A DNA stretch of 20,000 nt from Balamuthia mandrillaris (GCA_031835245.2 JAVKOQ020000077.1:178404-198403), one strand, 5' to 3'; shown: positions 15,812 to 20,000, numbered from the stretch's first letter. Translations and numbers: made by a program. The notes: a model not told the origin generated them from the letters alone.

Positions 15812-17108
15812 GGTACTCAGAACCTACGGCATTCAACTCCCCATGGTCCATTCTATAAAACTCTAAGTCTATAAGTCTAACGGATAAAGTGGGTCAAAGT
15901 AGCAATTTTTTCAATTTTTGTATAGGAATGACTATATAATCTAACAAGATATAATCATAATATCATCATCATCATCATCATCATCATTCTCCTCTGTCTC
16001 TTCCTCTTCATCCAAGATGGATATAACTGTAGTGGTAGTAGAAGTAGGAGATGATGATGGAGAGGAAGTGTTGTCATTATCATCATCATCTGATTTGTCA
16101 AAGTCCTCATCGTGGGCCACCAAGTATTTGGCCTTCAAAGTGTCCAGATTGTTGGAGAATTCTGTGAGGAGATTGCGCCATTTATCATAGCAATCATTGT
16201 TGGTTCGACATTGGGTAGGCAAGTGTTTGGCAATCTCCAACCAAGACCATTCATCACACAAGCACCAAGTGACAAGTCTACGGATTTCTGGTGCCTGCCA
16301 AGTGATTCGTTGCTGATGGCCATTCTTCTGATATTTGAGTCGACTGGATAACAATTGTTGTCGCTGAAGTGCTCTGCGAAGTCATTGTCATCATGGTGTT
16401 TGTTTTTTTGAGTCAGGACTCTTGTCATCGTCATTGTCAAGAGAAGCAAGGGAGGAGGATGATGGCTCTTGATGAGGGGTGAGGAATGCTTTGTGAATGG
16501 GTGATCCGTTGACCAACTTGGGAAGTATAGGAGCTACAAACTCATCCACCAGCTCATTCAAGCCACTGAAAAAGCTTTGTAGAATGCCAGAGATGTGTTG
16601 ACGGCACAGCTGGCGATGAATATTGGGCCAACGAAGAGGAGATTTGTTTTTGGCCTCATAGGTGGCTGCAGCTTCAGCTAGCACATCCTTATCAAACTCA
16701 TCTGGATGATTTTCTACCCAAGCAGTACAACATTCAAGCCACAAGGAGCGATAAAATCATATTTGTTGATCTTTGGTTGGCAAATCTGTTCATTTCATGA
16801 ACCACCTAAAGAAGCAGTGTAAACAAAGAAAGAGAAAGTGAGAAAGAAAGAAAGAACAAGAGAAAGAGAAAGAGAAAGCGAGAGAAAGAAAGAGGGAAAG
16901 AAAGAAAAAGGGAAAAGAGACAAAAAACAAAGTGTGAGTGAATGTCAAAAGAAGAACAAATGAACCAAGACCAATCATAACAATTATTGTTTGGACTATG
17001 AATGTTGCTACTGCCACAATAAACCTGTGCGTTCTAGCTAAGCGCTAGGTCTAAGGGTGCATTTTTGAATGCAAGCAAGCAAGCAAACAAACAAGCCATG
17101 ACTGACTG

Positions 17109-17121
17109 GATAGATAAATAA

Positions 17122-17201
<80 letters not shown>
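17109..17201. repeat. (GATA)n tetranucleotide microsatellite inside an intron of the recombinase gene
   Basis: About 20 near-perfect GATA units. Confidence 0.95.
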
Positions 17202-19454
17202 TGGTGATGGTGGTGGATACTATGCAAACAAAACAAACAAACAACACACAAACAAACCGTTGGTGAACAGCATGAATAAAACTCTGATAGTTGGTATCTG
17301 CAGACCAGTTGGATTGTTGCAAAGCATCTGGGGATAGATTGTGAAATGCTTCTTTGGTAACTAGCTCTGGAGCAATAACTGTATGCATGCAAGGGAGTGA
17401 GGATGAAAAGAACCAAAAAGAGAGCAAGTCAGTCCATCAAGTGGTAGTGGTGATGGTGGTGGTGATGGTGGTAGTGGTTTATTGATGCTGGTCAGGCAGC
17501 CAGCCCAGCCAAAGAAAAAACAAAAGAAAAAACAAAAATCAGATGAGCAGTAACGAACCGCAATGTCGAGGAGGATGATAATCAGCAGTGGTAGTTGTAA
17601 CAGAGGATGAAGAAGAAGAAGAAGAAGAAGAAGAAGAAGAAGAAGAATGAGGATGAGTGGTGGTAACATTGCTGACCAAGCGATTGGCCACAATAGCACG
17701 TTTTAATGTATCCTTGACGTAGACTTGCTGGGATCTACCACGAGGTACCCAACCTGCGATAAGGGCAGTAGTATCCAGTACATTGTTCTGACTGTGACCT
17801 TCCTGCAGTCCCTCCAAGATCAAGGCAGTGCAAAGGAAGCCAGCACGCAAGGAGTGAAAGGAAAACAATCCTTCAGGATAACCAGCCCGAACAGCCCGAT
17901 CTTGCAACTTGGCATTTAAAGTATCGCATGACCATCCCCATAATGATGTTTGTTTTTGTGCATCCGTTAAGCGCCAGTTGTGAAACTCGCGCAAATCCAA
18001 ACCATGCTTGCATAACAGATGCTTGTTTAACCAGTAAATAAAATCTCCAAGACAAATGCTTGGTGTTGATGTTGTTGATGTGGCAGCGGCGGTGGTGGCA
18101 GCGGCGGCAGCGGAGGTCGTAGCAGTGATGGTGCTAAGTGGTGATGATGATGATGATGGTGATGGTGAAGAAGATGATCCTCATGATGATGATGATGGTG
18201 GTGGTGGTGGTGGTGTTAAATAACCTTCAAATGTAACAACATGATTCCAATGATTTGGTATTCCTTTGGTGACTTGTTGGCACAACAAAAGGAAATAAAG
18301 AGGAGGAGCAGAAAATGCATCCTCTTGGTGATGGCAGCTGAGGTTGCCATTGTTGTTGTTGTTGTTGTTGGAAGAGGAGGATGAAAGTTTAGGTTGAAAT
18401 GCCACAATATCACCCAAATGAATGTTTGCAGCTGTAATGGCTCTGGCACCAGTACAAACACTGTGTAACCAACAACTGGCTTCACCAGCTTTGCTCACCA
18501 GTCCATCTGGAGTGGATGCGATGATATGTAAGACATCATCTAACAAACATGCGTCTTTGCACAATTGTTTGCTAGAACAGGAGGGTTTGGCTCTTTTGCA
18601 ATGCCGAATGGCCTGTTTGACTTGATCTTTGATGGCATCCATTTGGTTTTTTAGCAACAACAAGTAAGCATGGTCTGAGGTTGCCGTCAATGCTGTAGTG
18701 CGTCCTGTCGCTCCTGTTGTGGCTGCTTGAGTGACACCATCACCAAGAATGGTTCTGGATAAAGGAGAAGGAGGAGGAGAAGTGGTAGGTGATGATGATG
18801 CTGGAGACGAAGAGATCATGGAGGAAACAGAGGAGGAGGAGGAGGAGGAGGAGGAAGAGGAGAAGGAGGAGGATGCAGAAAGGGAGTCAAGCTGTTGTTG
18901 GATACTTTCATCATGCAAACAATAAAGACTGGCAATCATGACATCACGCACAGAGCTCAAGGCATAACCCACATCCAAAATCAACCATTGAACAAAGGCT
19001 CCTACGTTATGACGTTGGAGATTCAAAGGAAGAGCTGGCAAACATTTATGATGTGCACAATGTGCTTCCCAGATGGTCAAAGTCCAGGCATGTTTACGTT
19101 GGGTAGAAGGGCTCCATCAACTCGTCACTGCCGTCAACTCTGTCCACCGCTCTTCTGTCAAACGGTTCATCAATGTGATAGCACGAGAAAGACGTCTTCC
19201 TCCACCATCACCACCACCATTACTACTACTGCTGTCATGTGTAGTATCGTCATCAGTATCATCCTTTGTTCTAGCTCTATTTTGTTGTTTCTCTATTTTT
19301 CTCTTTTTTCCTTGTTTTTCTTCTTTTTGTTCTTCTTCATCTTCTTCTTCGTCTTCAGTTAACAACAACAAATCTATCAATGTTGGTGGAGTTGTTGTTT
19401 TGCTTGTTGCATCTATATCTGTTTCTACTCCTCCTCTTCTTCCTCTTAATGAGA

Positions 19455-19490
<36 letters not shown>

Positions 19491-19559
19491 AAATTACTGT
19501 CATCACCGCTATCCATAACATCACCATCATTGTTCTCAAAGACAAAGGACTCTGAATTT

Positions 19560-19815
19560 GAAGAAGAAGAAGAAGAAGAAAAAGCAGAAGAAGAAGAAAA
19601 AGAAGAAAAAGAAAAAGAAGAAGAAGAAGAAGAAGAAGAAGAACACAAAGAAGAAGAAGAAGAAGAAGAAGATGAAGAAGATGAAGAAGAAGAAGAAAAA
19701 GGAGGAGAAGAAGGGAGAAAAGAAGAAGAAGAAGGAGGAGGAGAAGAAGGAGAACAAGAAGAAGAAGAAGAAGAAGAAAAAGCAGAAGAAGAAGAAAAAG
19801 AAGAAGAAGAAGAGG
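19560..19815. repeat. (GAA)n-rich low-complexity tract, reading as poly-Ser on the minus strand
   Basis: Degenerate GAA triplets in a minus-strand frame that is open from 19999 to the TGA at 19355-19357. Confidence 0.9.
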
Positions 19816-20000
19816 TCGTCCTTTCTAATGATTGTTGTTGTAGTTGTTGTTGTTGTTGTAGTTGTTGTGGTTGTGATTGAGTAAATGATGAAGTGGGAGT
19901 AATGGTGGTAGTAGTGGATGAAAAGGGTGATGCAGAAAATGGAGGAGGTGAAAAGAGCTCTGCAGGATTATCAACAACAATAACAGGAGCAGAAGCAACA

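What the first reader, a model, noticed from the sequence alone, without database searches (positions are those of the whole stretch)
15941..20000. Spliced tyrosine recombinase fused to a telobox-like Myb domain: candidate new Crypton-like transposon family
Seen: reading through the TGA stops joins the ORF-track fragments 19117-19545, 18181-19080 and 17539-18000 in one frame. They carry the full tyrosine-recombinase residue set (TGAR, TKG, HSLR, GW, Y). Further spliced exons lead to a Myb repeat ending RTNNDCYDKWRNL. Established: Cryptons are intron-containing, YR-only DNA transposons; their best-known added DNA-binding domain is GCR1_C (CryptonF); LKDKWRN is the telobox signature of TRF/TRB telomere-binding Mybs. 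Inference: this is a YR element whose Myb binds its own ends or targets particular (possibly telomere-like) repeats. No RT/RNase H is visible in the window, so there is no evidence here for DIRS/Ngaro.
Basis: partly seen in the sequence, partly recalled or inferred. Interest (0 to 1): 0.85.

Follow-up and report, generated by a model that had tools for sequence, protein, structure and literature searches.

The report
Telomere-repeat-targeting recombinase transposon in protists
This is a decayed copy of a multi-copy gene family, also found in unrelated single-celled eukaryotes, that fuses a Cre-like DNA-recombining enzyme to a Myb DNA-binding domain and mostly sits beside telomere-type repeats, into which it likely inserts itself as a DNA transposon.

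Summary
Three GT-AG introns join a tyrosine recombinase (YR) to a single Myb in one frame, with 7 internal stops, mostly from CpG decay. Relatives are multicopy in Balamuthia and occur in Monocercomonoides, ciliate-code contigs and many metagenomes. A relative's model matches Cre best.

The new result is the target. In 6 of 10 independent relative locus groups the gene lies beside telomeric tracts: TTAGGG, or TTGGGG in ciliate-code contigs. Five groups share a junction GTT-N9-(A/T)AC. That motif was noted first, then found at this element's end (window 15814) in 6 of 7 flank rows from sister copies. Complete relative units are 3.1-3.4 kb, lack reverse transcriptase and form head-to-tail arrays; the ciliate-code units carry a hammerhead-like motif.

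Best reading: a Crypton-like DNA transposon that likely recombines into telomeric repeats, an RT-less parallel to TATE. Not shown: Myb binding, splicing by RNA, the 5' end, and placement against Crypton or TATE recombinases; Repbase and Dfam could not be checked. This copy's own junction lacks the GTT. The scan noted similar elements on other DNA (e1-7365929, e1-7880006; unchecked).

The parts
19459..20000 (-). 5' low-complexity (Ser/Gln/acidic) part of the gene, open at the window edge; apparent frameshift near 19460 in the (TCA)n run; element 5' end lies beyond the window
   Evidence: similar Ser-rich N-termini in P0017/P0018; frameshift inferred
17559..19458 (-). Exon 1 (visible in-frame part): helical N-terminal region and YR catalytic domain; TGA stops at 19119-19117 and 18183-18181
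18442..18453 (-). TGAR motif (first catalytic Arg)
18262..18273 (-). VTKG motif (catalytic Lys)
17845..17859 (-). FHSLR motif (H-x-x-R)
17719..17757 (-). AGW ... QVY (Trp in place of the second His, as recalled for Cre; nucleophile Tyr)
17379..17558 (-). Intron 1, 180 nt, GT-AG (inferred)
   Evidence: junction matches P0005 gene model
17258..17378 (-). Exon 2
17051..17257 (-). Intron 2, 207 nt, GT-AG, with (TATC)n repeat (inferred)
17025..17050 (-). Exon 3, 26 nt, with TAG stop at 17040-17038
   Evidence: matches P0006
16786..17024 (-). Intron 3, 239 nt, GT-AG (inferred)
15941..16785 (-). Exon 4: helical linker domain, Myb, acidic tail; TGA stops at 16759, 16393, 16390, 16384; terminal TAG 15943-15941
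16169..16309 (-). Single Myb repeat (RITW ... RTNNDCYDKWRNL)
15814..15824 (+). Element terminus TAC-N4-AACC; sister copies diverge from the window immediately to its left
15809..15813 (+). TAGGG remnant of a telomere-like target beside the terminus; sister copies have GTT-N9 here

Best explanation
This is a CpG-decayed copy of a protist DNA element family encoding one tyrosine recombinase-Myb protein; it likely moves without reverse transcriptase, by Cre-like recombination into telomeric or short telomere-like repeats, with the Myb predicted to grip those repeats. Shown: the fusion, the catalytic residues, multicopy state, a base-precise end with different flanks, telomeric tracts at the ends of relatives that differ with the host's genetic code, and 3.1-3.4 kb RT-free units in head-to-tail arrays. 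Inferred: the element would excise as a circle (the model proposed for Cryptons). Its terminus (A/T)AC-N4-AACC would act as an inverted, degenerate telomere box facing GGGTT in the target across about 7-9 variable bases. Strand exchange would fall near the shared TT(A/G)GG. Each insertion leaves repeats on both sides, which would allow further insertions and build arrays. The window copy sits at an internal site next to ordinary genes and is dead.
For: Fold: AF2 model of relative P0032 (pLDDT 83.5); the top 13 Foldseek ranks are Cre or Cre-variant entries (best E 6.9e-7). Residues: R-K-H-R-W-Y invariant in 72 of 72 aligned. Multicopy: one Balamuthia cluster has 17 members (15 listed), plus two more subfamilies. 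Breadth: 727 representatives at E<=1e-3, 230 at E<=1e-30; Monocercomonoides named. End: contig depth steps from 22-92 to about 1300 at 15813. Of 7 loose-end rows at 15809-15814 from 3 DNA runs, 6 place GTT exactly 9 nt before the element's TAC, behind telomere-like TTAG(G/A)GTT (spacing counted by hand); the motif had been noted, before these reads. Relatives: tracts of 2 or more perfect repeats in 6 of 10 locus groups, a degenerate one in a seventh; junction motif directly behind the tract in 5 of 10. L002 runs off its contig in 19 TTAGGG repeats. Code-6 loci use TTGGGG in 11 of 12. Units are 3085-3340 nt tract to tract; 0 RT hits in 35 frames scanned. One unit is followed by three different units (L011-L013). 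Myb: K-D-x-x-R/K in 28 of 49, D in 43, R in 39, matching the TRF1 base-contact spacing K421/D422/R425 (PMC2377444 passage).
Against: The window copy's own junction has only TAGGG before TAC, without GTT, and 1 of 7 rows has GTT 4 nt away. Three of 10 locus groups (L004, L005, L023) show no tract, though flanks are short in two; L007 and L021 have tracts without the junction motif. In Balamuthia the motif-bearing end is downstream of the gene on the opposite strand, in the other groups upstream on the same strand. Two loose-end rows mix several contigs (agreement 0.66, 0.75). Flanks could be ends of other array units rather than empty targets. Whole-domain PDB scores do not prefer TRF Mybs. Three of 152 relatives carry a chromodomain instead of Myb. 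The hammerhead-like motif in code-6 units hints at an RNA step. No circle, both-end pair for this copy, or matched empty site was shown.
Confidence: 0.72

Rival explanations
1. The element moves through RNA, like TATE or Terminons: a transcript trimmed by a ribozyme is reverse-transcribed by an RT encoded upstream or supplied in trans, and the YR integrates the cDNA into telomeric repeats.
For: A type I hammerhead-like motif follows the stop codon in 18 of 18 code-6 genes, against 3 hits in 20 shuffled sets; all 24 pairs form. TATE is a telomere-inserted YR retroelement in tandem clusters (PMC6681497). The window's 5' end is unseen.
Against: Complete units are 3.1-3.4 kb with no RT. The window gene keeps three introns (inferred), which an RNA step would be expected to remove. 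No hammerhead in the other 11 loci or the window. Rfam gives it no gathering-level hit and there is no covariation. Unlike Terminons (PMC6431247), the tract lies about 1.4 kb downstream and is G-strand.
Confidence: 0.12
2. It is an ordinary Crypton-type element with a loose liking for simple repeats; the telomere link comes from accumulation in repeat-rich regions and the Myb only binds the element's own ends.
For: Some CryptonV families insert in microsatellites (one sentence in PMC8869645). The window copy is internal and its junction is imperfect. The Myb is not clearly TRF-type by score.
Against: The tract type follows the host code (TTAGGG versus TTGGGG), strand and 9-nt spacing are fixed in five locus groups, and the spacing recurred in Balamuthia flanks read afterwards.
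Confidence: 0.09
3. These are subtelomeric repeat genes, possibly host-recruited, spread by recombination between chromosome ends (as recalled for yeast Y' elements) rather than by their own recombinase.
For: Head-to-tail arrays split by short telomeric tracts; L002 appears to end in a telomere.
Against: A base-precise end with at least five unrelated flanks, an internal copy beside ordinary genes, invariant catalytic residues and CpG decay typical of silenced repeats.
Confidence: 0.07

Closest known systems
Crypton DNA transposons (Kojima and Jurka 2011, PMC3212892; CryptonV via PMC8869645)
   Same: YR as the only enzyme, no RT; some CryptonV families are target-specific for microsatellites; CryptonF adds a C-terminal DNA-binding domain.
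   Different: Myb (or chromo) instead of GCR1_C; no DUF3504 or GCR1_C hit in 152 relatives; hosts outside those listed there (amoebozoan, oxymonad, ciliate-code); target is the telomeric repeat. 'Myb' occurs 0 times in that paper's main text.
TATE of Leishmania braziliensis (Ribeiro et al. 2019, PMC6681497)
   Same: YR element in tandem clusters at a fixed position in telomeric hexamers.
   Different: TATE has gag-like, YR and RT/RH ORFs and split direct repeats; complete units here have one ORF, no RT, and a fused Myb ('Myb' 0 times in that paper). Relationship of the recombinases untested.
Starship DUF3435/MYB hybrid genes (PMC12256816)
   Same: YR and Myb/SANT in one gene or one element.
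   Different: DUF3435 not detected; Starships are tens to hundreds of kb with cargo; 'telomer' 0 times in that paper.
Terminons / EN-deficient Penelope-like elements (PMC6431247)
   Same: Head-to-tail telomeric arrays with hammerhead motifs.
   Different: They encode RT and place C-strand repeats right after the ribozyme; YR is not among the accessory functions listed in the passage seen.
TRF1/TRF2-type telobox Myb proteins (PMC2377444, PMC10887745)
   Same: Single Myb with R-x-x-W arm and K-D-x-x-R recognition helix in most relatives.
   Different: CKD(K/R)WRN rather than LKDKWRN; the window subfamily has YDKWR; binding untested.

Membership tests
Tyrosine recombinase superfamily | Catalytic R-K-H-R-H/W-Y set and integrase fold | tested here: met
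   Phage_integrase in 8 of 152 relatives at E<=0.001, none for the window copy
Crypton | YR is the only enzyme; no RT or DDE transposase | tested here: met
   Complete relative units of 3.1-3.3 kb, no RT/DDE inside them; piggyBac-type DDE genes lie beside L019 and L021. The window copy's 5' end is unseen.
Crypton | 4-6 bp terminal direct repeats, no TIRs or long direct repeats | tested here: inconclusive
   TTGGG stands at both junctions of code-6 units but cannot be told from the target repeat; TIRs not tested specifically
Crypton (F, S, A, I, V groups) | YR clusters with a described Crypton group | not testable with these tools
   No Crypton sequences could be fetched; tree has no outgroup
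CryptonF / CryptonA | GCR1_C domain or DUF3504-type YR | tested here: not met
   No hit in 152 proteins at E<=0.001 nor among the 25 of 33 families shown at E<=0.1
TATE / DIRS-order retroelements | RT/RNase H and gag-like ORFs | tested here: not met
   for complete relative units; not testable upstream of window 20000
TATE | Tandem insertion at a fixed register in telomeric repeats | tested here: met
   Fixed register and arrays in relatives; whether it is the same bond as TATE's is not resolved
Starship | DUF3435 captain | tested here: not met
Starship | Tens to hundreds of kb with cargo | tested here: not met
Virophage / PLV / prokaryotic integrase | Close relatives in viral or prokaryotic contigs | tested here: not met
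   0 confirmed of 30 and 30 candidates in viral contigs, 0 of 12 in prokaryote genomes; pattern-seeded, so limited in reach
Terminon | RT, and hammerhead followed directly by C-strand telomeric repeats | tested here: not met
Telobox Myb | TRF1 base-contact residues K-D-x-x-R; closer to TRF than to c-Myb | tested here: inconclusive
   28 of 49 relatives keep the triad, window has Y for K; scores favour neither
Telobox Myb | Binds telomeric duplex DNA | not testable with these tools
   needs a binding assay

The most novel reading that the evidence does not exclude
An undescribed, eukaryote-wide group of RT-free DNA transposons that carry their own TRF-like reader and recombine into the host's telomeric repeat, retuning target and recognition helix when the repeat changes (TTAGGG versus TTGGGG). 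They build telomeric head-to-tail arrays, a DNA-recombinase counterpart of telomere retroelements, and one ciliate-code branch has added a hammerhead ribozyme.
Probability: 0.45. Interest if true: 0.9.

Novelty: new variant of a known kind. Interest (0 to 1): 0.8.

Why it matters
The telomere-targeting elements in the papers read here are retroelements (TATE, Terminons, TRAS, the Magnaporthe elements), and target specificity in DNA transposons is described as little known (PMC8869645). A compact one-gene element with a Cre-like recombinase aimed at TTAGGG would make Crypton-type transposition, so far a model by analogy, testable with a predicted site. It could also explain short internal telomere-like tracts and subtelomeric arrays in protists. 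Its proteins are annotated as hypothetical and mostly miss the Pfam integrase profile, so standard pipelines overlook the family.

Tried and rejected
No whole genome is held for the window, so copies, the second end and empty sites could not be mapped. Pfam and PDB sequence searches of the window's YR found nothing. Viral and prokaryotic contig scans were empty. Run search: no RNA holder listed. Three RNA runs of the same species label (3-5% of each read) gave almost no reads on the gene body and no splice joints; no expressed gene was laid as a control, so silence is not claimed. Stop-codon recoding or RNA editing was rejected: sister DNA copies read sense codons at 19119, 16759, 16390 and 16384 (96 rows not shown, so 18183, 17040 and 16393 were not seen), and 15 of 20 listed element variants restore a CpG against 6 of 20 in the flank. 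Rfam found no RNA family at gathering level near the units except a tRNA in L007; window hits were sub-threshold. A tRNA-like stretch in L002 did not fold better than shuffles (z -1.33). The structure string was one column off and was redone. Motif counts against shuffles (20 versus mean 0.49) are circular, because the motif came from those loci. The tree resolves the Balamuthia and code-6 clades but not the backbone, and one clade cannot show co-evolution. Literature searches listed no paper describing this family; subscription journals, Repbase Reports and Dfam are not covered, and no supplements were opened. Scan look-ups by sequence, by place and by a second word set were empty.

Full report
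Observation. The minus strand from 19458 to 17542 is one frame with two TGA stops. Three GT-AG introns (17558-17379, 17257-17051, 17024-16786) continue it to a Myb exon ending at 15941, with 7 internal stops (6 TGA, 1 TAG). The product is collinear with P0016 and with metagenomic proteins P0031 and P0032. The introns are inferred from homology and from gene models of sister copies; three RNA runs gave no joints. Pfam gave the window copy no integrase hit and a sub-threshold Myb hit.

What the protein is. All 5 first hits are labelled Balamuthia mandrillaris. One subfamily has 17 cluster members (15 listed), and natural single proteins carry both parts. A profile built mostly from the YR part finds 727 representatives at E<=1e-3 and 230 at E<=1e-30; only the best 150 were returned. 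Of 152 relatives scanned, many of them fragments, 49 hit Myb, 3 chromo and 8 Phage_integrase; none hit DUF3435, DUF3504, GCR1_C or RT. R, K, H, R, W and Y are invariant in 72 aligned members. The model of P0032 (pLDDT 83.5) matches Cre first, then XerA, an integron integrase and lambda Int. The Atlas lists unnamed and Phage_integrase clusters at 0.97. Named hosts are Balamuthia and Monocercomonoides exilis; 12 loci read open only under code 6, likely a ciliate (inference from code and repeat; recalled). No relatives were confirmed in viral or prokaryotic contigs.

The copy is a decayed repeat. CpG observed/expected is 0.20-0.44 from 13 kb onward against 0.59-1.06 before. Sister DNA copies read sense codons at four of the stops, and 15 of 20 listed element variants restore a CpG.

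Telomeric context in relatives. The 23 metagenome loci fall into 10 groups: L001, L002/3, L004, L005, L006, L007, twelve code-6 loci, L018/19, L021, L023. Six groups hold tracts of two or more perfect repeats, TTAGGG or, in 11 of 12 code-6 loci, TTGGGG; L001 holds a degenerate one; three hold none. In five groups the tract ends in GTT-(A/G)GG-N6-(A/T)AC, often followed by N4-AAC. L003 starts behind three repeats, and L002, 99% identical, ends in 19 repeats at the contig end. Code-6 units are 3085-3218 nt apart and L002/3 spans 3340 nt. One unit is followed by three different units (L011-L013). No RT appears in 35 frames scanned, of 45 listed plus four added.

The same junction at this element's end. 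After that motif was noted, reads were laid on the window. Contig depth steps from 22-92 to about 1300 at 15813 (not a copy number). Seven loose-end rows lie at 15809-15814 in three DNA runs. All seven end in telomere-like letters, at least five differ further out, and six put GTT nine bases before the element's TAC-TCAG-AACC (counted by hand). One contig shows the left flank running on without the element into a G-rich stretch, possibly an empty site or a paralogous flank. Against: the window copy itself has only TAGGG before TAC; two rows are mixtures; 11 rows were not shown; and here the motif lies downstream of the gene on the opposite strand, the reverse of the five metagenome groups.

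The Myb. TRF1 contacts bases through Arg380, Lys421, Asp422 and Arg425 (PMC2377444, table passage), and LKDKWRN is called the telobox motif (PMC10887745, passage). K-D-x-x-R/K is kept in 28 of 49 relatives; the window subfamily has Y for K. Whole-domain scores against PDB do not favour TRF over c-Myb repeats. The code-6 clade (100/100) has a different recognition helix, but one clade is one event. Myb-guided targeting is therefore predicted, not shown.

Hammerhead. A type I hammerhead-like motif with a possible pseudoknot follows the stop codon in 18 of 18 code-6 genes (9 distinct units aligned), and in none of the other loci or the window; shuffles gave 3 hits in 20 sets. It is nearly invariant, so there is no covariation, and Rfam scores are weak (E 0.31). 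It keeps an RNA-intermediate rival alive for that branch.

Mechanism. YR sites are two inverted arms around 6-8 bp, and Cryptons are proposed to excise as circles (PMC3212892, section 3 part 1 of 7). I infer that the element end supplies an inverted, degenerate telomere box, the target supplies GGGTT(A/G), and exchange falls near the shared bases, which leaves repeats on both sides. L001 is terminally redundant and its one junction has a perfect 6-bp inverted pair around 7 bases; this fits a circle or a collapsed array.

Comparison. It works like a Crypton in enzyme content and like TATE in target. TATE has three ORFs including RT (PMC6681497, passages). CryptonV microsatellite targeting was seen as one sentence (PMC8869645). 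Starship DUF3435/MYB hybrids (PMC12256816, passages) show that YR plus Myb is not unique. Terminons (PMC6431247, passages) need RT. Also seen as passages, without bearing on this family: PMC3537659, PMC8767320, PMC9156397, PMC3464196; PMC6759080 gives TTAGGG for Monocercomonoides (76). Membership of a named Crypton group could not be tested. Eight literature searches listed no description of the family, but Repbase and Dfam were out of reach. Earlier scan notes on other DNA describe a YR-telobox fusion and a YR element in TTAGGG repeats; whether they are this family was not checked.

Verdict. Real, mobile, dead in this copy; most likely a telomere-repeat-targeting YR DNA transposon (0.72). New variant of a known kind; interest 0.8.

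Noticed in passing
window 12600-14740 (+): Broken gene with a coiled-coil start (21-nt repeats at 12625-12750) and kinase-like motifs read by eye; recalled as Crinkler-like architecture. Pfam and PDB searches of its separate pieces gave no kinase hit.
   Followed up: partly
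window 13248-13445: Inverted repeat with 82-nt arms, 93% complementary, 34 nt apart, inside the broken gene; could be a small hairpin-type mobile element.
   Followed up: no
window 14917-15618 (+): ORF remnant with one TGA stop; apparently repeated (several contigs 90% alike); no useful Pfam or Atlas hit.
   Followed up: partly
window 1-12000: Ordinary intron-rich genes: macro domain 9529-10365 (-) and LNS2/PITM 8436-9437 (+) by Pfam; nucleotidase-like, RasGAP-like and aldo-keto-reductase-like genes judged by eye.
   Followed up: partly
proteins P0004, P0025: Gene models run from one Balamuthia subfamily into the C-terminal part of another, suggesting neighbouring copies of different subfamilies.
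   Followed up: no
proteins P0017, P0018, P0104, P0085, P0115: C-terminal tails read like translated telomeric repeats (LGLRV...PNPNPN, RVRVRV, LGLGLG). DNA not seen.
   Followed up: partly
proteins P0061, P0081, P0100: A clade with a chromodomain in place of Myb; may target chromatin marks rather than sequence.
   Followed up: no
proteins P0008, P0027, P0028, P0032 and four more: N-terminal CxxC...FCSxxC zinc finger, similar to the FCS/MYM type as recalled.
   Followed up: no
L019 3-593 and L021 7356-8561: piggyBac-type transposase genes (DDE_Tnp_1_7) next to family members.
   Followed up: no
L007 3599-3671 (-): tRNA gene about 250 nt beyond a C-strand TTAGGG tract downstream of the YR gene.
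   Followed up: no
protein P0140: 2064-aa protein with a ubiquitin hydrolase domain and two YR-like regions.
   Followed up: no
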